Assembly: GCA_903842855.1 (NCBI GenBank)
Contig: CAIMNT010000096.1
Location: 1-37,355, forward strand
Source: an uncultured Actinomycetes bacterium
GTDB lineage: Bacteria; Actinomycetota; Actinomycetes; Nanopelagicales; Nanopelagicaceae
Reading direction: 5' to 3'
DNA: 37,355 nucleotides
The position numbers and the translations under genes are program-made. The notes below the pieces were generated by a model. The model did not search any database, was not told the origin of the DNA, and saw nothing but the letters and a program-made list of their open reading frames with translations. This document shows, piece after piece, positions 2,177 to 35,816 of the stretch; position 1 is the first letter of the stretch, and the number at the start of each line of letters is the position of its first letter.

Positions 2177-3742
2177 ATGAGCGCCGATTCCAAATCTTTT
2201 TACCTCACGACGCCGATTTATTATGTGAACGATGCCCCACATATCGGTACCGCTTACACCACAGTTGCTGGGGATGTACTTACGCGCTGGCATCGTCAAC
2301 GCGGGGAGTCTGTCTGGTTTTTAACGGGCACTGACGAGCATGGTCAAAAGGTTCTGAGTGCGGCGCAATCCAATGGAGTAGCTCCTCAAGAGTGGTGCGA
2401 CCGCTTGGTGGAGGAGTCTTGGAAGCCGGTCTGGAAAGACTTGAACATTGCTAACGATGATTTTATTCGTACAACTGAACCTCGGCATATGGAGCGAGTA
2501 CAACGCTTTCTTACCGGACTCAAAGATGCGGGCTATATCTACTCAGGCAAATATGAAGGTCCATATTGCATTGGTTGTGAAGAATTTAAACTTCCTGCAG
2601 ATTTGGATGAAGGACGCTGTAAAGTCCATGGCACTCCAGTCGAAATCTTGAGTGAAGAGAATTGGTTCTTTAAATTAAGCGCTTTCGTGCCACAAATATT
2701 GCAACACTACAAAGACCATCCAGAGGCATGCGAACCAGCTAGTGCCCGAAATGAAGTGGTTTCATTCTTGGAGAGCGGTGTAGAAGACCTCTCGATCTCT
2801 CGCTCTACCTTTGATTGGGGAATTCCCGTTCCTTGGGATACCAAGCAAGTGGTCTACGTCTGGTTTGATGCGCTGTTGAACTATGCGACTGCAGTTGGGC
2901 TCGGCGATGAAGCTGGAAGCGATGGTGCGCAGAAATTTCTGAGAACGTGGCCAGCAGATGTGCATCTAGTCGGTAAAGATATTTTGCGCTTTCACGCTGT
3001 TATCTGGCCCGCCATGTTGATGGCCGCGAATTTGCCGCTACCAAAGAAGGTTTTTGCGCACGGATGGCTATTGGTCGGCGGCGAGAAGATGTCTAAATCA
3101 AAGGCGAACAAGATCGCTCCATCTGAGATCACCGATCATTTCGGCGTAGATGCATTTCGATATTACTTCCTACGTGCAATTCCATTTGGAAGCGATGGAT
3201 CTTTCTCCTGGGAGGATATGTCGGCTCGTTATACATCTGAGCTAGCTAATGATTTTGGAAATCTTGCCTCACGTTTAATAGCGATGATTGAGAAATATTG
3301 TGATGGGCTGATCCCCGCTGTGGCTTATGACGAAACACTAAGTAACGCCTTAAGCCTTGCTGCAAGTACCGCCGATAGCGCGATTGTCGCTTTGGATTTT
3401 CAAACTGGCATAAATGCGATCATAGATTTTTGCAAACGTGTGAACGGGTATGTGACTGAACAGCAACCTTGGGTGCTGGCTAAAGATCCCGCCAACGTCG
3501 TTGAGCTAGAGAAGGTCTTGTACAACACCGCAGATGCGCTTCGCGCGTTAGCGGTACTCCTGCATCCCATCATGCCTGCCACCACCGAAATCTTGTGGGA
3601 GAGTTTGGGCGCCAATGAAACTCTAGGTGAGATCTCCAAGCAGTTGATCGGTGATGTGGGCCGTTGGGGACAGTTGCCCAAAGGGTCCAAGGTCACGAAA
3701 GGTGCAGTTCTCTTTCCGCGGCTAGAAGAAAAAGCGGAGTAG
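2177..3742 (+). CDS. metG: Methionine--tRNA ligase (short form, no C-terminal tRNA-binding extension)
   Basis: 521 aa. Class I motifs are visible: PHIGTAYT (HIGH-type) and KMSKS. A CxxC...C zinc knuckle is present in the CP domain. Confidence 0.95.
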   Translation: MSADSKSFYLTTPIYYVNDAPHIGTAYTTVAGDVLTRWHRQRGESVWFLTGTDEHGQKVLSAAQSNGVAPQEWCDRLVEESWKPVWKDLNIANDDFIRTTEPRHMERVQRFLTGLKDAGYIYSGKYEGPYCIGCEEFKLPADLDEGRCKVHGTPVEILSEENWFFKLSAFVPQILQHYKDHPEACEPASARNEVVSFLESGVEDLSISRSTFDWGIPVPWDTKQVVYVWFDALLNYATAVGLGDEAGSDGAQKFLRTWPADVHLVGKDILRFHAVIWPAMLMAANLPLPKKVFAHGWLLVGGEKMSKSKANKIAPSEITDHFGVDAFRYYFLRAIPFGSDGSFSWEDMSARYTSELANDFGNLASRLIAMIEKYCDGLIPAVAYDETLSNALSLAASTADSAIVALDFQTGINAIIDFCKRVNGYVTEQQPWVLAKDPANVVELEKVLYNTADALRALAVLLHPIMPATTEILWESLGANETLGEISKQLIGDVGRWGQLPKGSKVTKGAVLFPRLEEKAE

Positions 3743-4600
3743 ATGTCCGACCGCCACTCTCTTAAGGAGCCTCGTCCAGACGCACCCGTTCCTGAACCGC
3801 TTAAGAGGCCTTGCATAGATGTGCATGCACATATGGAACTTGTTACAGAGAGCGCACCAGATGCACCGGAAGTTGCTGAACTTCTCGCATCCGCGGCTCG
3901 CGCTGGTATAGATCGCGTCATTCAAGTTGGCTATTCCGCAGCTCAATCCCGTTGGGGAGTTAAGTGCGCTGAAAGCTTTCCTGGGCAGGTATTGGCTGCG
4001 GTAGCACTCCACCCCAATGAAGCTCCCGTAGTAGCAGATTTAGAGGCGGATCTCGCTGTTATTGAGGAACTAGCCGCTCATCCACGCGTACGCGCTATCG
4101 GTGAGACTGGTCTTGATTTCTTTAGAACTGAACCGGAGCTGCGTGATCGACAGATTTACTCTTTCAAGCGACACATTGCACTTGCGAAAGAGGTCGACAA
4201 AGCCTTGGTAATTCATGATCGCAATGCGCATCGCGCCGTTCTTGATACCTTGCTTGATGTTGGTGCCCCTCGTTTGACTATTTTTCATTGCTATTCCGGC
4301 GATGCCGAGATGGCACGCGAATGCGTCGATGCCGGGTATTTCTTATCATTCGCAGGAACCGTGACTTTTAAAAATGCGCCAGAGTTACGCGAGGCCGCCA
4401 AACTAGTTCCAGTCGAGCAATTGTTGATCGAGACCGACTCTCCTTTCTTGGCGCCTGCACCACATCGCGGAACTCTTAATACTCCAGCACAAGTGGCAAA
4501 CATCATTAGGTTTGTAGCTGATCTGCGCGATGTGAGCGTCGAGTATTTATGCGATCAGGTAACAGAAAATGCGTTACGTTTGTTCGGAAGTTTTGATTAA
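3743..4600 (+). CDS. tatD: TatD-family metal-dependent DNase/hydrolase
   Basis: Motifs seen: IDVHAHM, HPNEA, IGETGLDFFR, VIHDRNAH, FHCYSGD, ETDSPFL. It starts directly after the metG stop, and its TAA overlaps the rsmA ATG (TAATG). Confidence 0.9.
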   Translation: MSDRHSLKEPRPDAPVPEPLKRPCIDVHAHMELVTESAPDAPEVAELLASAARAGIDRVIQVGYSAAQSRWGVKCAESFPGQVLAAVALHPNEAPVVADLEADLAVIEELAAHPRVRAIGETGLDFFRTEPELRDRQIYSFKRHIALAKEVDKALVIHDRNAHRAVLDTLLDVGAPRLTIFHCYSGDAEMARECVDAGYFLSFAGTVTFKNAPELREAAKLVPVEQLLIETDSPFLAPAPHRGTLNTPAQVANIIRFVADLRDVSVEYLCDQVTENALRLFGSFD

Positions 4601-27438: not shown

Positions 27439-27550
27439 TCTCTATGCACAGGCCCATGTGTGAGCCTGAACGCGCCTGCGCCTAAGCCAGCAGAATCCCA
27501 ACATTCGGGCGGTCTTCCACTGCCTATAACTATGAAAGGTGAAAATCCAG

Positions 27551-28351
27551 ATGGATGTATTCCAGAAGAAGGCGATCCCTGCCGGGGTCAAAAAGAGTTG
27601 GCGGGCTCAAACAATTGCTATAGCAATGATCGGAGCAATCGCAGTTCCAATGATGGTCCAGAGCGAGGGAGCTTACGCTGCGACCGCTGCTAAGTCGCGG
27701 AGCATCCGACAATCTGCTCCCGTAAAGAAGACGGTCGCTAAGAGAGCGGTCGCTAAGAGAGCGGTTGCGAAGAAGGCACCAGTAAAGAAGGCACCAGTAA
27801 AGAAGGCACCAGTAAAGAAGGCACCAGTAAAGAAGGCTGCTATCAAGAAGTCGCCTCTGAAAAAGAGTTCCGGCACCAGAACTGTGAAGAAGGTTGCAAG
27901 TCGATCCACTGGCGTCAAGAAGAGTGCTAGAGCAAAGTCAACCTCCTCTCTTCATAAGGTTGCCAAGATCGGAGCTCAGAGCGCCGCAGTTGCTGCGGGA
28001 ACTGCAGCAGGTGTGGCCGTCTCTAAGAATCTTTCGCACAAGATAGCGAGTGATAAAGCTACATCTACTGCTGAATCCAAATCCGTTGAAACATCCAAAC
28101 CAACTGAGGCAACAATACCTGCTGAGGCAACAAAGCCTGCTGAGGCAACGAAGCCTGTCAACGCCACTACTAAAGGTGACTCAGCAAAGAGTGCCGAGGC
28201 ACCTGTAGTTTCACAAGAGGTTAAGGCTGCTACTAGCAAAGATGTTGCCAAAAGCGCTCAGAAGGGCGCAAAGGGTAGTAAGGCAAGTAAGGCAAGTGCT
28301 GCCAAACCGATGAAGAAGATGCGGATGCGTCGCTTGCACGTAGAGCCATAA
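27551..28351 (+). CDS. Secreted, highly basic Lys/Ala/Pro/Val-rich repeat protein (histone-H1/AlgP-like low-complexity composition behind a signal peptide)
   Basis: The signal-like N-terminus is MDVFQKKAIPAGVKKSWRAQTIAIAMIGAIAVPMMVQSEGAYA|A. It is followed by AVAKR/APVKK pentapeptide repeats, a Thr/Ser/Ala/Pro-rich segment (PAEATK x3), and the tail KKMRMRRLHVEP. The track start is GTG 27539. ATG 27551 has a better AAAGGTGA ribosome-binding site. Confidence 0.65.
   Translation: MDVFQKKAIPAGVKKSWRAQTIAIAMIGAIAVPMMVQSEGAYAATAAKSRSIRQSAPVKKTVAKRAVAKRAVAKKAPVKKAPVKKAPVKKAPVKKAAIKKSPLKKSSGTRTVKKVASRSTGVKKSARAKSTSSLHKVAKIGAQSAAVAAGTAAGVAVSKNLSHKIASDKATSTAESKSVETSKPTEATIPAEATKPAEATKPVNATTKGDSAKSAEAPVVSQEVKAATSKDVAKSAQKGAKGSKASKASAAKPMKKMRMRRLHVEP
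27731..27850 (+). repeat. In-frame 15-nt tandem repeat (8 units; 4 identical copies of GCACCAGTAAAGAAG at 27776-27835)
   Basis: Read directly from the sequence. It encodes TVAKR-AVAKR-AVAKK-(APVKK)x4-AAIKK. Confidence 0.95.
28103..28156 (+). repeat. In-frame 18-nt tandem repeat (3 units), encoding (T/P)AEAT(I/K)P-type hexapeptides
   Basis: The three units are ACTGAGGCAACAATACCT / GCTGAGGCAACAAAGCCT / GCTGAGGCAACGAAGCCT. Confidence 0.9.
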
Positions 28352-31638: not shown

Positions 31639-32712
31639 GTGGGTTCACAGGCTGAGCTGATCGATTCGTGCCTGGAGTTTCATCTGCTTGTGAGCGAAAT
31701 GAAGAATGAATTTGGACCCCTTGCCGCTTTGATGGCAGATCCGACCGTGGAAGAGATCTGGATTAACTCGCCACATCGGATCTTTATCGCTCGTGCAGGG
31801 GTGAGTCAGCTCACCAATCTGGTTTTGCAGCAAGAAGATATTCACGACTTAGTAGAAAGGCTCCTCATGTGGGGCGGAAGGCGACTTGATCTATCGCATC
31901 CTTTCGTGGACGCCCGCTTACCGGACGGAAGCCGGTTGCATGTAGCAATTCCCGATGTCACCGCAGTCAACTGGGCGGTAAATATTCGCAAACACCTGAT
32001 CCGAGGTAAATCGCTAGCCAACCTTTCAGAGCTTGGGGTGATGAGTCCTGAGATAGCCGAATACTTAACAGAGTCGGTCCGCGCGGGACTGAACATTCTG
32101 GTGAGTGGATCAACGCAAGCCGGCAAGACCACGCTTTTAAATGCGCTGGTGAGCGCGGTTCCATTTCATAATCGGGTCATAACCATCGAGGAGGTCTTCG
32201 AGCTCAAGCCACAACTACCTGACTGCGTTGCGCTACAAACTCGCCAGGCGAATCTTCAAGGTGAAGGAGAGATTCCGCTTCGAAAATTGATTAAAGAGGC
32301 GCTGCGGATGCGGCCATCACATCTGGTTGTGGGTGAGATTCGCGAAGCTGAAGCGCTAGATCTGCTTATTGCGCTTAACTCGGGTTTACCAGGAATGGCG
32401 ACGATTCACGCAAATTCTGCGCGGGATGCGATTGCCAAATTGCAGACACTTCCGTTACTTGCCGGAGAAAATATCTCCTATCAATTTGTAGCTCCAATTG
32501 TTGCAGCCACCATTGACCTGATTGTTCACTCTACGATCTTGCGCGAAACAGGTGAGAGGCGAATCGTTGAGATCGCCCATGTCACTGGTCGAATCGAGAA
32601 CGATCGCGCCGAGATTGAACCTCTATTTACTTATCGTGACGGTAAATACGAAATGGGTCTCGGTGATCCATATCGAGTATTTGACTCCGGCGGATCGCAG
32701 CGGTCAGCATGA
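31639..32712 (+). CDS. tadA: Tad/Flp pilus assembly secretion ATPase TadA/CpaF
   Basis: Walker A GSTQAGKTTLLNAL, Walker B HLVVGEIR, His box TIHANSA, and N-terminal PTVEEIWIN. The start is uncertain (GTG 31639 or ATG 31699). Confidence 0.9.
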   Translation: MGSQAELIDSCLEFHLLVSEMKNEFGPLAALMADPTVEEIWINSPHRIFIARAGVSQLTNLVLQQEDIHDLVERLLMWGGRRLDLSHPFVDARLPDGSRLHVAIPDVTAVNWAVNIRKHLIRGKSLANLSELGVMSPEIAEYLTESVRAGLNILVSGSTQAGKTTLLNALVSAVPFHNRVITIEEVFELKPQLPDCVALQTRQANLQGEGEIPLRKLIKEALRMRPSHLVVGEIREAEALDLLIALNSGLPGMATIHANSARDAIAKLQTLPLLAGENISYQFVAPIVAATIDLIVHSTILRETGERRIVEIAHVTGRIENDRAEIEPLFTYRDGKYEMGLGDPYRVFDSGGSQRSA

Positions 32713-33443
32713 TGGCCAGAAAAGGAAAACCAAAAAGTATCCATGTGTTTTCTGCGGGAGCCCTCGGTTTCCTCGTTGCGCATGCCCTGATTGGAACCAA
32801 TCTACTTGCCATCCCAGCTGCTGGATTGGGGGCTCTCATCCCGTCAATTCTGATGAAGCGAAAAATGCAACGCCGACAAGAAGCTCTTGCCGGGCTCTGG
32901 CCAGAGATCCTCGATCACATGATCTCAGGTCTACGTTCGGGACTCTCTATTGCCGAAACTATCTCTGGTTTATCTACGCGTGGACCTGAAATTTCCAGGC
33001 CGATCTTTGGAGAGTGCAAAAAGATGCTGCTCTCAGGTGTCGAGATCTCGAAAATATTTGTATTTATCAAAAGAGAATTTAGTGATCCAGTGGCCGATCA
33101 AGTCTGTGAGGTGCTGGATTTTGCGCGAGGGACAGGGAGCCGCGATACCGCAATAACGCTAAGGAAGTTGGGGGACTTTATCCGGAGCGATATTGCGGTT
33201 CGTGGTGAGATTTACGCAAAGTTGGGTTGGATCAAGAATTCTGCAGTAGTAGCAGCTGCCGCTCCTTGGATTCTTCTCGTCATACTTTCAACGCAACCGA
33301 CTACCTTGCAGGCCTTCTCCACTTTAAGCGGCCATCTCATTCTGCTCTTTGGCGTTCTGCTAAGCCTTCTGGCTTATCTCTGGATGTCACGTGTGGGGCG
33401 AGTACAAGAAGTTCCGAGAATATTTAGCGGTGAGCTCGCATGA
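32709..33443 (+). CDS. tadB: Tad pilus platform protein TadB (T2SS-F-like)
   Basis: Polytopic membrane protein with a cytoplasmic helical domain (WPEILDHMISGLRSGLSIAETI). ATGA overlap with tadA. Confidence 0.75.
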   Translation: MMARKGKPKSIHVFSAGALGFLVAHALIGTNLLAIPAAGLGALIPSILMKRKMQRRQEALAGLWPEILDHMISGLRSGLSIAETISGLSTRGPEISRPIFGECKKMLLSGVEISKIFVFIKREFSDPVADQVCEVLDFARGTGSRDTAITLRKLGDFIRSDIAVRGEIYAKLGWIKNSAVVAAAAPWILLVILSTQPTTLQAFSTLSGHLILLFGVLLSLLAYLWMSRVGRVQEVPRIFSGELA

Positions 33444-34027
33444 GATTTCTTATTGCCCTAATGGCCGTTGCTCCGATACTAGGTGTGGCACTTTCTGTCT
33501 TGTGGTCCGAATTCCGCAGCGAACTAATTACGGGCTATAACAGCGCAACTTATAAGGTCGAGAGTAAGAAATCTCGCAAGAAAATCGAATCCGAATTTCC
33601 ACTTGTGGTTGAGTTGTTCGCTATTTTATTGGCCGGCAATCAGAGCCCTGCGACCGCTCTTGATCACATTAGTCGTCGCGCAGAGGGAGAGTTTGCTCTC
33701 TTGCTCCGAGAGTGCGTTTCAGAAATTCACTCTGGTGCAAATTTCTCGCAAGCGCTTGACCTGCTAAATACTCGAATCCAATCTCCCATGGTTCGTCGAT
33801 TCTGCGATTCCTTGATGATCGCTATAGAGCGCGGATCGCCACTTGTCGACGTAGTAAATAGACAGGTCGAGGAAGTTCGCAGTGAAGAGCGATCCCGACT
33901 CCTCGTCACGGCTGGCAAGGCTGAGATCGCGCTCATGATCCCTGTTGTCTTCCTCATCCTTCCTGTCTCAGTTCTCTTCGCACTCTGGCCGTCTTACTTC
34001 GCTCTTGGCCACAGCGTTGGATTCTGA
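33440..34027 (+). CDS. tadC: Tad pilus platform protein TadC (T2SS-F-like)
   Basis: N-terminal TM segment, a helical domain (FPLVVELFAILLAGNQSPATAL...) and two C-terminal TM segments. ATGA overlap with tadB. Confidence 0.75.
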   Translation: MRFLIALMAVAPILGVALSVLWSEFRSELITGYNSATYKVESKKSRKKIESEFPLVVELFAILLAGNQSPATALDHISRRAEGEFALLLRECVSEIHSGANFSQALDLLNTRIQSPMVRRFCDSLMIAIERGSPLVDVVNRQVEEVRSEERSRLLVTAGKAEIALMIPVVFLILPVSVLFALWPSYFALGHSVGF

Positions 34028-34194
34028 GCACTACTGAACAAGCACTACTGAACAAGCACTACTGAACAAGCACTACTGAACAAGCACTACTGAACAAGCA
34101 CTACTCAACAAGCACTACTCAACAAGCACTACTCAACAAGCACTACTCAACAAGCACTACTCAACAAGCACTACTCAACAAGCACTACTGAATA
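34028..34194. repeat. Perfect 14-bp tandem repeat array: 5 x GCACTACTGAACAA, 6 x GCACTACTCAACAA, then one truncated G-type unit
   Basis: Counted directly. Unit boundaries fall at 34028, 34042, 34056, 34070, 34084 (G-type); 34098, 34112, 34126, 34140, 34154, 34168 (C-type); and 34182-34194 (GCACTACTGAATA). The array begins at the first base after the tadC TGA and ends 35 nt before the flp ATG. Confidence 0.97.
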
Positions 34195-34229
34195 CCGCCT
34201 CTATCGACAGCTTTCGGCAAGGAGAGAAA

Positions 34230-34454
34230 ATGATGAATATGGGAAGTCGCCTAATAAATGAACTCAGAGAGAAAGTACTGAAAAGTTCAGTGCAAGTTTT
34301 CCGAGCGCTGAGTGAGGAGCGAGGCGATGTGCCGGGCTGGGTCTTGGTGGTTCTAATGACCACCGGCCTTGTGACAGGAATCTGGACATTAGCCGCGCCA
34401 CGTATTGATGCGATTCTGCGTAATTCACTCGACTCGATGAGTGGCATTCGGTGA
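34230..34454 (+). CDS. flp: Flp-type pilin-like small protein (actinobacterial DUF4244-like), non-canonical processing motif
   Basis: 74 aa. AAGGAGAG lies 4 nt upstream. Basic leader, then EERG|DVPGWVLVVLMTTGLVTGIW (hydrophobic helix). Its position between tadC and the tadE-like genes matches Rv3656c-type pilins. Confidence 0.6.
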   Translation: MMNMGSRLINELREKVLKSSVQVFRALSEERGDVPGWVLVVLMTTGLVTGIWTLAAPRIDAILRNSLDSMSGIR

Positions 34455-34831
34455 GCCCTGCGAAATTCAGGTTTCGCGCCTACCTGAAGAGAAATTTGGG
34501 ACGAGTGATCTCCGTGATAGGAGAGGAGCGTGGAAATGTGGAGAGCGCTTTGACTCTAATTCCCTTGATGCTGCTCTTTCTGAGCGTGCTACAGGTGTGT
34601 ATCTCGGTGTACAGCAGAGACACTTATAGCCAAATTACACAAGGCGCAGTTGCCTTTGCGGCAATGGGCGATGGAGTATCTCAACCATGGAGCTCAAATC
34701 CGATTGCACTTCCTTTGCCTGGCGGAGGATCGGTATTGGTTGGAGAGCGCAAAGAGAAAGTTCCGGCCATTACTCCGCTATTGCCTGTAGGGGATTTATT
34801 TTACACAACGGGAGTAGCGGTTCAAGAGTGA
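34451..34831 (+). CDS. TadE-like pseudopilin
   Basis: GEERGNVESALTLIPLMLLFLSVL is a TadE-type N-terminus. GTGA overlap with the flp stop. Confidence 0.65.
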   Translation: MSPAKFRFRAYLKRNLGRVISVIGEERGNVESALTLIPLMLLFLSVLQVCISVYSRDTYSQITQGAVAFAAMGDGVSQPWSSNPIALPLPGGGSVLVGERKEKVPAITPLLPVGDLFYTTGVAVQE

Positions 34832-34872: not shown

Positions 34873-35325
34873 ATGGGTCATCTCCGCAATAGCTTAATTA
34901 GTGATCAAGAAGGAAGCGCCGTGATTGAATTTGTGGTCTTGGCACTCCCACTACTTTTACCCCTCACCGTTTATCTCAATGAAGTCCACCAAAATTCCAT
35001 TATTAACTCCGACCTCCATAATTTAGCTCGTCAAAGTGCCCGTGCATTTGTCACAAGTGGCGATGAAAGTTTTGAAGCAGCTCGTATGCAGACGTTACTC
35101 AATCTCTTTGAAAGTAAAATCCTGAAACCGGCAGGTATTACAGAGACCCCTGTACTCAATATTGAATGTTCTGCCGTTCCGTGTTTAACGCCGGATGCTC
35201 AAGTTAAGGTAACTGCAACCATTACCCACCTTCATAAAAATTTCTCGGGAATCTTCAGATTCATCTTCGCACCATCCCTAGAGTTTTCGGCGAGCGACAC
35301 TCAAATCGTGGACGCCTGGAGATGA
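34873..35325 (+). CDS. TadE-like pseudopilin (second copy)
   Basis: DQEGSAVIEFVVLALPLLLPL is a canonical TadE N-terminal motif. The track ORF (34687) is over-extended into the previous gene. The start is either ATG 34873 or GTG 34828 (a GTGA overlap). Confidence 0.65.
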   Translation: MGHLRNSLISDQEGSAVIEFVVLALPLLLPLTVYLNEVHQNSIINSDLHNLARQSARAFVTSGDESFEAARMQTLLNLFESKILKPAGITETPVLNIECSAVPCLTPDAQVKVTATITHLHKNFSGIFRFIFAPSLEFSASDTQIVDAWR

Positions 35326-35816
35326 TTCGATCGCAGGTGAGGCAATTGCTGCGTGACGAGACGGGCAGCCTTTCGATACTTGTCTTCGCTCTGTTTTTCG
35401 TTCTATTGATATCTTCACTCGGAGTCGTTGATATCTCCGATAATTTCCTCGCCAAACGTCAACTCATTGAAATAGGCGAGGTAGCCATATCTCAGGCTGC
35501 GCACCAAATCTCACTCTCACGCTACTACTCCGGAAATGTCTTAATGGATACATCTGGCGCAGATGGAGCTCAATTTAGAATTCCATTGGATTGCACTAAG
35601 TCCTTCGCAATATTTTCAGAAAAGATCTCTATTTCGCAGTTGAGGGGCGAACGGATAACGATCGACGATTGGAGCTGCGCTAACGATGAGGTGAATGCAA
35701 CTATCTCAGCCCGAATTCCGATTTTATTGAAATTACCGTTAGGCATTGGAACCGATGGAACAACCATCTCTTCTACCGTGGCCGCTACCTCGATTATTGG
35801 TGGGGTGCGACCCTGA
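35322..35816 (+). CDS. Rv3654c-type TadE/TadG-like pilus-associated protein
   Basis: N-terminal RDETGSLSILVFALFFVLLISSLGVV. ATGA overlap with the preceding gene. It is the last gene of the tad operon. Confidence 0.55.
   Translation: MIRSQVRQLLRDETGSLSILVFALFFVLLISSLGVVDISDNFLAKRQLIEIGEVAISQAAHQISLSRYYSGNVLMDTSGADGAQFRIPLDCTKSFAIFSEKISISQLRGERITIDDWSCANDEVNATISARIPILLKLPLGIGTDGTTISSTVAATSIIGGVRP

What the first reader, a model, noticed from the sequence alone, without database searches (positions are those of the whole stretch)
34028..34194. Two-variant perfect 14-bp tandem array fills the tadC-flp gap, directly upstream of the pilin gene
About 12 head-to-tail copies of a 14-mer occupy nearly all of the only sizeable gap in an otherwise start/stop-overlapping tad operon.
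- **Structure.** Five GCACTACTGAACAA units are followed by six GCACTACTCAACAA units and a truncated G-type unit. Copies within each block are identical. This block structure is what replication slippage or recent expansion of two sub-arrays would produce.
- **Coding potential.** The period is not a multiple of 3. The G-type unit carries TGA, so the stop rotates through all three frames. The array is therefore non-coding, but it would be transcribed if flp is co-transcribed with tadABC.
- **Possible roles (all inference).** (a) A variable-number contingency locus that sets the pilin-to-machinery expression ratio or switches piliation on and off. (b) An array of binding sites for a DNA- or RNA-binding regulator. 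(c) An mRNA processing or stability element that separates the pilin transcript from the tadABC transcript.
- **Side observation.** The half-motif ACTGAA recurs as a perfect inverted repeat, ACTGAA-AAG-TTCAGT, at 34277-34291 inside the flp 5' coding region. This may be coincidence.
- I am not aware of such an array being described in tad loci.
Basis: partly seen in the sequence, partly recalled or inferred. Interest (0 to 1): 0.75.

Follow-up and report, generated by a model that had tools for sequence, protein, structure and literature searches.

The report
Variable-copy 14-bp repeat before pilin gene
A perfect 14-bp tandem repeat between a pilus-machinery gene and the pilin-like gene of an uncultured freshwater actinobacterium has 2 to 11 copies in strains of the same species, and similar fast-changing repeats fill this spot in many related lineages, but whether it controls pilus production is untested.

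Summary
Window 34028-34192 holds 5x GCACTACTGAACAA, 6x GCACTACTCAACAA and a truncated G-type unit. They lie in the 202-nt non-coding gap between tadC and a 74-aa pilin-like gene of an actinobacterial (Nanopelagicaceae-like) tad operon.

- **Copy number varies.** Conspecific contigs, 98.4-99.6% identical in the flanks, carry 2 units, and by gap length 3 and 6, against 11 here. Other contigs break inside the array.
- **Relatives.** A sister population (TadC 83%) has an orthologous array, GAAGCACTACCAAA, with 6-10 copies. The closest relatives (86-90%) keep only two degenerate proto-units.
- **Clade-wide pattern.** 34 of 57 TadC lineages have a tandem array between the tadC stop and the near-invariant pilin core. 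Units are unrelated and periods range from 7 to 108 bp. Arrays inside the leader ORF are always multiples of 3.
- **Background.** A further 20 kb around a relative's tad locus has no intergenic array.

So this is a slippage-driven VNTR at a clade-wide hot spot. Its RNA is structure-free, A/C-rich and G-poor. A graded effect on pilin output is plausible but unproven. A sequence-specific binding-site array is disfavoured, and the flp hairpin is chance. I call it a new member of a known kind; the clade-wide pattern is the interesting part.

The parts
31639..32712 (+). tadA-like secretion ATPase, first gene of the operon
   Evidence: PF00437 T2SSE, E 8e-38. Best NCBIfam hit is TIGR03819 TadA-family ATPase, 252 bits, below its cut-off.
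32709..33443 (+). tadB-like platform protein
   Evidence: PF00482 T2SSF. It overlaps tadA and tadC by 4 nt each.
33440..34027 (+). tadC-like platform protein; its TGA stop (34025-34027) abuts the array
   Evidence: PF00482 T2SSF, E 1.6e-17. 1393 homologues, several of which JGI names 'tight adherence protein C'.
34028..34097 (+). G-type block: 5 identical units GCACTACTGAACAA (ancestral unit type)
   Evidence: Conspecific contigs L135, L137, L136 and L138 carry only this unit type.
34098..34181 (+). C-type block: 6 identical units GCACTACTCAACAA (a derived G>C variant amplified inside the array)
   Evidence: It is absent from the four conspecific contigs with DNA. It is flanked on both sides by G-type sequence.
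34182..34192 (+). Truncated terminal G-type unit (GCACTACTGAA) that merges into unique sequence
   Evidence: The same 3' junction (GCACTACTGAATACCGCC) is present in all conspecific contigs.
34193..34229 (+). Unique spacer with Shine-Dalgarno AAGGAGAG (34219-34226), 3 nt before the ATG
   Evidence: CTCTATCGAYAGCT...CAAGGAGAGAAAATG is conserved in the closest relatives L001 and L046. The predicted local hairpin is not significant (z 0.71).
34230..34454 (+). 74-aa Flp/pilin-like prepilin: variable 32-aa leader, then the near-invariant core G|DVPGWVLVVLMTTGLVTGIWTLAAPRI
   Evidence: ORF. The core is identical or nearly so in about 100 loci, down to 48% TadC identity. 3865 homologues, all unnamed or 'hypothetical'. 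No Pfam or NCBIfam hit.
34451..34831 (+). TadE-like pseudopilin 1
   Evidence: Weak PF07811 TadE hit, E 0.002, below cut-off. The gene call in conspecific contigs is 126 aa.
34873..35325 (+). Pseudopilin-like protein 2 (150 aa by the gene call in conspecific contigs)
   Evidence: coordinates shifted by +32729. The motif EG|SAVIEFVVLALPLLL is in the ORF.
35322..35816 (+). Pseudopilin-like protein 3, last gene of the operon; prfB follows
   Evidence: prfB is identified by PCRF and RF-1 domains.

Best explanation
The array is a hypermutable minisatellite (VNTR) in the non-coding spacer between tadC and the pilin-like gene of an actinobacterial tad operon. The spacer is presumably co-transcribed with the operon.

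**Shown**
- The array gains and loses whole 14-bp units. Strains of one species carry 2, 3, 6 or 11 units between otherwise identical flanks.
- The six C-type units are a single G>C point mutation copied inside the array.
- The array descends from a two-unit proto-repeat that is still visible in the closest relatives. It expanded independently, or was retained, in a sister population.

**Inferred**
- The mechanism is slipped-strand mispairing during replication, possibly helped by transcription.
- The consequence is quantitative rather than ON/OFF. Unit number sets the length of a structure-free, A/C-rich, G-poor, ribosome-free RNA stretch just upstream of the pilin Shine-Dalgarno.
- Longer alleles should uncouple pilin translation from tadC. 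They should also expose more naked C-rich RNA to Rho and RNases, and so lower pilin output relative to the machinery (a 'rheostat').
- In this clade the whole tad operon, and above all the region between tadC and the mature pilin, behaves as a tandem-repeat hot spot. This fits fluctuating selection on a surface filament that may serve as a phage receptor or in DNA uptake.

**My confidence by step**
- VNTR generated by slippage: about 0.95.
- Any effect on pilin expression: about 0.4.
- The Rho/polarity direction specifically: about 0.2.
For: - **Exact structure and statistics:**
- **Same-species alleles.** L135 and L137 have 2 G-type units, with flanks 98.4-99.6% identical to the window. Gene coordinates of two further contigs give gaps of 90 nt (3 units) and 132 nt (6 units), against 202 nt here. 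L136 has an N-run inside the array. L138 and two other contigs start inside it.
- **Sister population (TadC 83-84%).** The orthologous unit GAAGCACTACCAAA has 5.9, 6.9, 8.9 and 9.9 copies with constant flanks. Three contigs break there.
- **Closest relatives.** L046 (90%), L001/L002 (89%) and L045 (86%) have only GCAATACCCAAAA-GCACTACCCAGCA.
- **Clade-wide frequency.** 34 of 57 TadC clusters have an array between the tadC stop and the pilin core. Copy number differs within at least 6 multi-member clusters, while array-free clusters have constant spacing.
- **Density.** 1.75 arrays per kb in this interval against 0.26 per kb in the rest of the loci. There are no intergenic arrays in 20 kb around a relative's locus or in the other 33 kb of the window.
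- **Period rule.** Arrays inside the leader ORF always have a period that is a multiple of 3. Upstream arrays have any period, which confirms those are untranslated.
- **RNA properties.** MFE is -2.4 kcal/mol against -17.0 +/- 3.0 for shuffles, z +4.8. Composition is C 32%, G 11%. The array is the second-highest C>G 78-nt window on the + strand. This matches the published compositional definition of Rho-loading sites (PMC6407284).
- **Precedent.** The H. influenzae hmw1A 7-bp repeat is a transcribed repeat tract upstream of an adhesin gene that grades expression (PMC12721329).
Against: - No expression data exist, so the effect on pilin level is pure inference.
- Arrays of relatives have no common RNA property. 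About half are G>C rather than C>G, and some are predicted to be well structured (z -2 to -3). A Rho or unstructured-RNA mechanism therefore cannot be general.
- The most abundant relative (P0076 lineage, listed in 307 blocks of the collection) has a compact 48-nt gap with no array. The array is therefore dispensable.
- No promoter or terminator motif lies in or next to the array. The transcript architecture is unknown.
- Short-read assemblies can mis-size repeats. The 2-unit alleles come from k141 contigs and look sound, but within-sample heterogeneity was not measured.
- Whether these organisms' Rho would act here is unknown.
Confidence: 0.5

Rival explanations
1. Selectively neutral VNTR. 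The array is a by-product of replication or transcription-associated slippage in a spacer that tolerates any insert. It has no effect on pilus expression.
For: - The array is absent in the closest relatives and in the most abundant lineage.
- Unit sequences and RNA properties are not conserved.
- Alleles of 2 to 11 units coexist in the species.
- Arrays also sit in cleaved leader peptides, where length should not matter.
Against: - The clade is annotated as Nanopelagicaceae-like, an order with streamlined genomes under 1.5 Mbp (PMC12817590). In the compact P0076 relative the gaps inside the tad operon are at most 48 nt.
- Yet 34 of 57 lineages carry 50-250 nt of repeats at this one spot, a 6.6-fold enrichment over the rest of the tad loci.
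- There are no intergenic arrays in about 53 kb of neighbouring DNA.
- Recurrent birth of unrelated units at the same site suggests either selection or a very local mutational bias.
Confidence: 0.35
2. Translation enhancer or ribosome standby site. The single-stranded A/C-rich array recruits 30S subunits next to the pilin Shine-Dalgarno, so more units give more pilin.
For: - The array RNA is structure-free and ends 27 nt before a strong SD.
- CA-rich unstructured tails strongly raise translation in E. coli (PMC5934652).
- In some relatives the SD+ATG module itself is tandemly repeated (L018, L028-type). This hints at selection for more initiation.
Against: - The standby effect saturates at 16-18 nt, so 165 nt is unexplained.
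- The RBS is not significantly structured (z 0.71), so no standby site is needed.
- Several relatives' arrays are predicted to be structured.
Confidence: 0.1
3. mRNA processing or stability element. The array is a cleavage or decay-entry region that separates a stable pilin transcript from the tadABC message.
For: - The pilin gene lies downstream of the machinery genes and must be made in excess.
- The array is single-stranded RNA, the usual substrate of RNase E-type enzymes.
- The hmw1A repeat works through RNA processing.
Against: - No Rfam family matches and no conserved sequence or structure is shared among relatives.
- Many lineages do without any array.
- The hmw mechanism needs a long hairpin, which is absent here.
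Confidence: 0.08
4. Array of binding sites for a sequence-specific DNA- or RNA-binding regulator, operator- or iteron-like.
For: There are eleven identical direct repeats immediately upstream of a gene.
Against: - The unit differs between the window and the sister population. Unrelated units occupy the site in other lineages.
- The number of sites varies from 2 to 11 within the species.
- The unit has no dyad symmetry.
- The 14-bp period is out of helical phase.
- No regulator gene is encoded in the operon.
Confidence: 0.03
5. Assembly artefact: the array or its copy number is produced by the assembler.
For: The window is a metagenome contig. Other assemblies break or insert Ns at this position.
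Against: - Both blocks (70 and 84 nt) are shorter than a typical read and are anchored by the G/C junction and unique flanks.
- The same unit and the same 3' junction are recovered independently in at least 5 other assemblies.
- An orthologous array is found in more than 10 assemblies of a sister population.
Confidence: 0.02

Closest known systems
Haemophilus influenzae hmw1A/hmw2A heptamer repeat (ATCTTTC)n in the 5' UTR of an adhesin gene (PMC12721329; PMC8262952)
   Same: Both are perfect tandem repeats with a period that is not a multiple of 3. Both lie upstream of a surface-structure gene, downstream of or within the transcribed region. Copy number varies between and within strains. In hmw1A the effect is graded, with expression inversely proportional to repeat number, rather than ON/OFF.
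   Different: - The unit is 14 bp, not 7.
- The array sits inside an operon between two cistrons.
- The hmw mechanism depends on a long RNA hairpin cut by RNase III, whereas this array is predicted to be structure-free.
- No expression data exist here.
- The organism is a free-living freshwater actinobacterium, not a host-adapted pathogen.
Bacterial VNTR/minisatellite loci as used in MLVA typing, including MIRU-VNTR of Mycobacterium tuberculosis (own knowledge)
   Same: Both are intergenic tandem repeats with units above 9 bp and strain-to-strain copy-number polymorphism. MIRUs also sit between genes of operons in an actinobacterium.
   Different: MIRUs are 40-100 bp, are dispersed over dozens of loci, and carry small ORFs that overlap the neighbouring genes. 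This unit is 14 bp, has no start codon, and is found at one locus only in the data available.
Promoter or upstream simple-sequence contingency loci of fimbriae and adhesins, such as H. influenzae hifA/hifB (TA)n and N. meningitidis nadA (TAAA)n (own knowledge)
   Same: Both are hypermutable repeats that control a pilus or adhesin gene, giving population heterogeneity in a surface structure.
   Different: Those tracts have 1-4 bp units and act by changing -35/-10 spacing or regulator binding. Here no promoter is detectable around the array, and the array is far too long to lie between promoter hexamers.
Rho utilisation (rut) sites and Rho-mediated phase-variable expression, e.g. the C. difficile flagellar switch (PMC6407284; PMC7446863)
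   Same: The array offers at least 78 nt of untranslated, unstructured, C>G RNA with regularly spaced C. The C. difficile case shows that Rho acting on a leader can turn a DNA polymorphism into phase-variable expression of a surface organelle.
   Different: Rho dependence is untested. Relatives' arrays are often G>C. The C. difficile polymorphism is an inversion, not a repeat-number change.

Membership tests
Bacterial VNTR / minisatellite | Head-to-tail copies of a unit of about 10 bp or more | tested here: met
   11 full units plus 1 partial unit of 14 bp, 99% matches.
Bacterial VNTR / minisatellite | Copy number differs between strains while the flanks are conserved | tested here: met
   2, 3, 6 and 11 units in conspecific contigs with 98.4-99.6% identical flanks. 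6-10 units in the sister population.
Contingency locus / phase-variable repeat | Hypermutable repeat tract associated with a gene for a surface structure | tested here: met
   The array lies 38 nt upstream of the pilin-like gene of a tad operon. Polymorphism as above. The pilin identity is inferred, with no family hit.
Contingency locus / phase-variable repeat | A change in repeat number alters expression (ON/OFF or graded) | not testable with these tools
   This needs reporter fusions or allele-resolved transcript and protein data. Frameshift-type switching is unlikely, because arrays inside the leader ORF always have periods that are multiples of 3.
Contingency locus / phase-variable repeat | High-frequency, reversible switching within a clonal population | not testable with these tools
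   Only assembled contigs are available.
MIRU (mycobacterial interspersed repetitive unit) | 40-100 bp unit, dispersed at many intergenic loci, with small ORFs overlapping the neighbouring genes | tested here: not met
   The unit is 14 bp. No second locus exists in the 37-kb window, and the metagenome scan for a unit dimer found nothing. The array has no start codon.
Rho utilisation (rut) site | At least 70-80 nt of untranslated, unstructured RNA with C>G and regularly spaced C | tested here: met
   165 nt, C 53 / G 18, second-highest C-G skew in the window. MFE -2.4 against -17.0 for shuffles. No ORF. Criteria are taken from PMC6407284.
Rho utilisation (rut) site | Rho-dependent termination or polarity at the site | not testable with these tools
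   No transcriptome data or Rho perturbation are available. The compositional property is not shared by about half of the relatives' arrays.
Ribosome standby site | A single-stranded stretch next to an RBS that is sequestered in stable structure | tested here: inconclusive
   The single-stranded stretch is present. The RBS hairpin is weak and not better than shuffles (-10.5 kcal/mol, z 0.71), and it is absent in L001. The known effect saturates at 16-18 nt.
Operator/iteron-type binding-site array | Unit sequence conserved among relatives that share the regulator | tested here: not met
   The units differ: GCACTACTSAACAA (window), GAAGCACTACCAAA (83% relatives), none in the 86-90% relatives, and unrelated units elsewhere.
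Known structured RNA family (Rfam) | Match to a covariance model | tested here: not met
   No hit at E <= 1 in 33800-34500, both strands.

The most novel reading that the evidence does not exclude
The window array is one visible allele of a selection-maintained system. In Nanopelagicaceae-like freshwater Actinobacteria with streamlined genomes, the tad pilus operon is studded with rapidly turning-over tandem repeats. The hottest spot is the tadC-pilin spacer and the cleaved pilin leader. Together these act as hypermutable 'tuning knobs' for pilus expression. That would give these abundant free-living plankton a contingency-locus strategy, so far known mainly from host-adapted pathogens, to diversify a phage-receptor or DNA-uptake filament without changing the invariant mature pilin.
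Probability: 0.25. Interest if true: 0.75.

Novelty: new member of a known kind. Interest (0 to 1): 0.55.

Why it matters
- **Where contingency loci are known.** Hypermutable repeat tracts that tune surface structures are textbook biology for pathogens such as Haemophilus and Neisseria. They are hardly documented in free-living, genome-streamlined bacterioplankton, which are thought to carry minimal regulation and little spare DNA.
- **What was found here.** An uncultured freshwater actinobacterial clade tolerates or favours 50-250 bp of perfect repeats at one operon junction in most lineages. Alleles differ between conspecific strains.
- **Biological consequence if it affects pilin level.** It would be a simple, heritable but reversible way to generate cell-to-cell diversity in piliation. 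That bears on phage susceptibility, DNA uptake and the 'constant-diversity' picture of these populations.
- **Practical use.** The locus is a ready-made strain marker, MLVA-like, for lake time series. It also explains recurrent contig breaks at tad loci in metagenome assemblies.

Tried and rejected
- **Dispersed repeat.** There are no other copies in the window. A scan of metagenome contigs for two adjacent units gave 0 hits. That collection evidently lacks this strain, so the test is weak for copy-number purposes.
- **Exact-protein look-up with TadC.** It found nothing. The look-up with the 74-aa pilin-like protein succeeded.
- **Promoter or terminator in or near the array.** Only one weak promoter-like hit overlaps the SD and start codon, and the region has fewer hits than shuffles. 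It is not conserved in L001 by eye. Rejected.
- **Known RNA family.** None found.
- **SD-sequestering hairpin plus standby model.** The hairpin is not significant and not conserved.
- **A common RNA property of all relatives' arrays** (unstructured, or C>G). Mixed result: about 9 lineages are unstructured or C/A-rich, about 6 are structured, and about half are G>C. No universal property was found.
- **Pfam and NCBIfam identification of the pilin-like protein.** None, even at E <= 10. Its homologues are unnamed.
- **Literature.** No paper combines tad/flp with intergenic tandem repeats. No paper on Nanopelagicales mentions such repeats.
- **Three of six folds** used wrong coordinates (L080, L077, L069) and were ignored.

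Full report
**1. The observation**

The sequence at 34028-34192 is exactly as described. It holds five GCACTACTGAACAA units, six GCACTACTCAACAA units and a truncated G-type unit. TRF reports period 14, 11.6 copies, 99% matches and score 291. With up to two mismatches the unit occurs nowhere else in the 37-kb window except one chance hit. No shuffle of the window reaches 13 matches.

The array begins at the base after the tadC stop codon. It fills 165 of the 202 nt before the next start codon (34230), which is preceded by a strong Shine-Dalgarno, AAGGAGAG. All other junctions of the operon are 4-nt overlaps. The TGA of the G-type units rotates through all frames, and there is no start codon in the pilin frame before 34230. 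The array is therefore non-coding.

**2. Context**

- The surrounding genes are a T2SSE ATPase whose best NCBIfam match is the actinobacterial TadA family, two T2SSF platform proteins (TadB, TadC), a 74-aa protein, three pseudopilin-like proteins and then prfB.
- The 74-aa protein has no Pfam or NCBIfam hit even at E <= 10. Its 3865 homologues are unnamed.
- I call it pilin-like from its position, its size and the motif ERG|DVPGWVLVVLMTTGLVTGIWTLAAPRI.
- Relatives of TadC in GTDB genomes are MAGs labelled Candidatus Nanopelagicaceae or uncultured freshwater actinobacteria.
- In Actinobacteria, tad/Flp pili are required for natural transformation in Micrococcus luteus (PMC4322843).
- In cultured Planktophila, CpaF/TadBCG genes lie in a variable genomic island (PMC12817590).

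**3. The same array in the same species**

The exact 74-aa protein is encoded on 15-16 contigs from other samples. Four of them have DNA available, and their flanks are 98.4-99.6% identical to the window.

| Contig | Finding |
|---|---|
| L135, L137 | Two G-type units plus the terminal partial unit; gap 76 nt |
| L136 | An N-run inside the array, with at least four G-type units on its 3' side |
| L138 | Begins inside the array, with at least four G-type units |
| Two places without DNA | Gene coordinates give gaps of 90 and 132 nt, i.e. 3 and 6 units |
| Two more contigs | Start 203 and 156 nt before the pilin gene |

The array therefore exists as alleles of 2, 3, 6 and 11 units, and it repeatedly breaks assemblies.

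The C-type unit is seen only in the window. It is flanked by G-type sequence on both sides. It is thus a derived point mutation that was amplified six-fold inside the array, which is the signature of unit-wise slippage.

**4. Orthologous and analogous arrays**

- **Closest relatives** (TadC 86-90%: L046, L001, L002, L045). The gap is 62 nt and reads GCAATACCCAAAA-GCACTACCCAGCA-CACCCTCTATCGA. This is two degenerate proto-units followed by the same unique spacer.
- **Sister population** (TadC 83-84%, 12 contigs from several lake metagenomes). It carries GAAGCACTACCAAA, which shares the GCACTAC core, starting 14 nt after the stop. Copy numbers are 5.9, 6.9, 8.9 and 9.9 with otherwise constant flanks. 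Three contigs end in the array.
- **All loci.** Across 125 loci grouped into 57 TadC clusters (>= 95% aa identity), 34 clusters have at least one array (TRF score >= 50) between the tadC stop and the pilin core.
- **Unit diversity.** Units are mostly unrelated. Examples are AGAACCAAGTAA x2.5-10.9, a 23-mer x4.1/5.1, AAGTATGAATCAAG x5.4/6.4, CCACACA x17, CCACCCTTCACCTCA x6.3, AGTTGAAGTGAGT x7.8 and GCAAGACCACTTAAA x9+. Periods run from 7 to 108.
- **Within-cluster behaviour.** Copy number differs within most multi-member clusters that have an array. Clusters without arrays have invariant spacing, 145 nt in 5 contigs and 156 nt in 10.
- **Conservation contrast.** The distance from the tadC stop to the pilin core ranges from 145 to 623 nt. 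The core itself is almost invariant down to 48% TadC identity.

**5. Internal control: coding versus non-coding**

I placed the pilin start at the first in-frame start codon with a Shine-Dalgarno. By that placement, every array inside the leader ORF has a period that is a multiple of 3 (9, 12, 15, 18, 24, 36, 54, 90). Arrays upstream of the start have any period (7, 10, 13, 14, 16, 17, 20, 23, 50 and others).

This confirms that the upstream arrays, including the window's, are untranslated. It also shows that repeat-number changes in the leader are not used for frameshift ON/OFF switching.

**6. Is this a generic feature of these genomes?**

- Array density is 1.75 per kb in the tadC-to-core interval and 0.26 per kb in the rest of the roughly +/-3-kb loci.
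- The remaining arrays cluster at the other tad gene junctions:
  - TadA|TadB: 24, all multiples of 3.
  - Flp|TadE1: 20.
  - Upstream of tadA: 15.
  - TadE1|TadE2: 14.
  - TadE2|TadE3: 11.
  - TadE3|prfB: 11, mostly not multiples of 3.
- In 20 kb around the tad locus of the most abundant relative, the only tandem repeat is a coding Ala/Pro repeat.
- In the window, the only other arrays lie in one Lys/Ala-rich protein.
- The hot spot is thus the tad operon, above all the pilin's upstream region. This rests on limited background sequence, about 53 kb.

**7. Properties relevant to mechanism**

- As RNA the array is essentially structure-free: MFE -2.4 kcal/mol against -17.0 +/- 3.0 for shuffles, and all 200 shuffles fold better.
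- Composition is A 42%, C 32%, G 11%. It is the second-strongest C>G 78-nt window on the + strand.
- This meets the compositional definition of a Rho-loading site: untranslated, unstructured, C>G, with regularly spaced C (PMC6407284).
- There is no Rfam match and no promoter or terminator motif.
- The small hairpin that could pair with the SD is no better than shuffles and is not conserved.
- CA-rich single-stranded tails enhance translation by ribosome standby, but the effect saturates at 16-18 nt (PMC5934652). This cannot explain an array of 165 nt.
- The relatives' arrays share no RNA property. About half are G>C and some are predicted to be structured.

**8. Interpretation**

*Shown.* The feature is a real, non-coding, slippage-type VNTR with 2-11 units within one species. 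It derives from a two-unit proto-repeat, at a site where tandem arrays arise again and again in the clade.

*Inferred.* The only thing common to all these arrays is their repetitiveness and position. The likely consequence is therefore a change in the length, and here the amount, of naked C-rich RNA in the untranslated stretch ahead of the pilin SD. That would give graded pilin output.

I favour 'longer array, less pilin', through loss of translational coupling and Rho or RNase access. The analogy is the hmw1A repeat of H. influenzae, where expression falls with repeat number (PMC12721329). This direction is a guess, with a probability of about 0.2.

A neutral VNTR remains a strong rival (0.35). 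The array is dispensable in the closest and in the most abundant relatives. A sequence-specific binding-site array is disfavoured by the lack of unit conservation.

**9. Comparison with known systems and novelty**

The feature meets the definition of a bacterial VNTR/minisatellite. It has the genetic hallmarks of a contingency locus, but not the functional ones, which are untested. It is not a MIRU, since unit size, dispersion and small ORFs are all not met.

I found no paper describing tandem arrays in tad loci or in Nanopelagicales. I therefore rate it a new member of a known kind.

What lifts the interest above an ordinary VNTR is the clade-wide pattern in a lineage annotated as Nanopelagicaceae-like, an order with streamlined genomes (PMC12817590). 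The mature pilin is nearly invariant, while everything between tadC and it is built from short-lived repeats.

**10. The side observation**

The ACTGAA-AAG-TTCAGT hairpin in the pilin leader is at chance level. The window has 11 such perfect 6+3+6 hairpins against 9.1 expected, and ACTGAA occurs 9 times outside the array. The hairpin is not conserved in relatives.

Noticed in passing
L001-L124, all tad gene junctions (e.g. L007 2182-2258, L008 4335-4413, L021 3982-4061): Tandem arrays sit at every junction of the tad operon in this clade. Counts are TadA|TadB 24 (all periods multiples of 3), Flp|TadE1 20, upstream of tadA 15, TadE1|TadE2 14, TadE2|TadE3 11, and TadE3|prfB 11 (mostly not multiples of 3). 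The N-terminal leaders of TadB and the pseudopilins appear to be built from in-frame repeats.
   Followed up: partly
L018 3725-3777; L028 3807-4017 and L116-L124 (same lineage): In some lineages the repeated unit contains the Shine-Dalgarno and the start codon itself. Examples are AAGGAGATCAGAAATGTTAA x2.7 and an 18-mer, GAGGGAACGGGATGAATA, up to x14. These give several tandem SD+ATG modules ahead of the pilin core. Since the leader is presumably cleaved off, this could multiply initiation sites.
   Followed up: no
window 34323-34409 and all loci with a pilin core: The core RGDVPGWVLVVLMTTGLVTGIWTLAAPRI is identical or nearly so in lineages whose TadC is only 48-58% identical. It is far more conserved than the machinery. 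It has W rather than E at position +5 after the putative cleavage Gly. The family has no Pfam or NCBIfam model, and 3865 homologues are unnamed.
   Followed up: partly
L003 1003-1188 vs L004 818-1188: Two contigs with identical TadC differ in the divergent intergenic region upstream of tadA, 184 nt against 369 nt. The difference comes from 15-bp arrays: x2.1 in L003, and x3.7 plus x4.1 in L004. This is a second VNTR, in the likely operon promoter region.
   Followed up: no
L001 3682-3716 vs L046 (leader of the pilin-like gene): In the closest relatives, which lack the intergenic array, a 15-bp in-frame repeat TCAGAATGAAGACAC (MKTLR) in the pilin leader has 2.3 against 4.3 copies. The variable element has in effect moved from the spacer into the leader.
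   Followed up: partly
window 27539-28351: A Lys/Ala/Pro-rich 270-aa protein contains the only other strong tandem repeats of the window: 15-bp AAGAAGGCACCAGTA x4.5 (KKAPV) and an 18-bp repeat x3. It resembles the basic tails of actinobacterial histone-like proteins. It was not analysed.
   Followed up: no
L125-L129, about 3470-4093 (gene upstream of the tad locus in the P0076 lineage): An Ala/Pro-repeat protein (GCAGCACCTGCACCT units) has 165, 177, 195 or 208 residues in contigs that share an identical TadC. This is a coding VNTR in a neighbouring gene.
   Followed up: no
L080 and L021, at the tadC stop: The tadC stop codon lies in the loop of a perfect 6-bp inverted repeat, CTCTCG-TGAG-CGAGAG, immediately before the AGAACCAAGTAA array. 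It was not examined further.
   Followed up: no
Contig ends: L002, L017, L020, L035, L048, L051, L052, L078, L079, L082, L116, L121, L138: Many metagenome and MAG contigs end within 0-140 nt after the tadC stop, inside an array. These VNTRs are a systematic cause of assembly breaks at tad loci in these organisms.
   Followed up: partly
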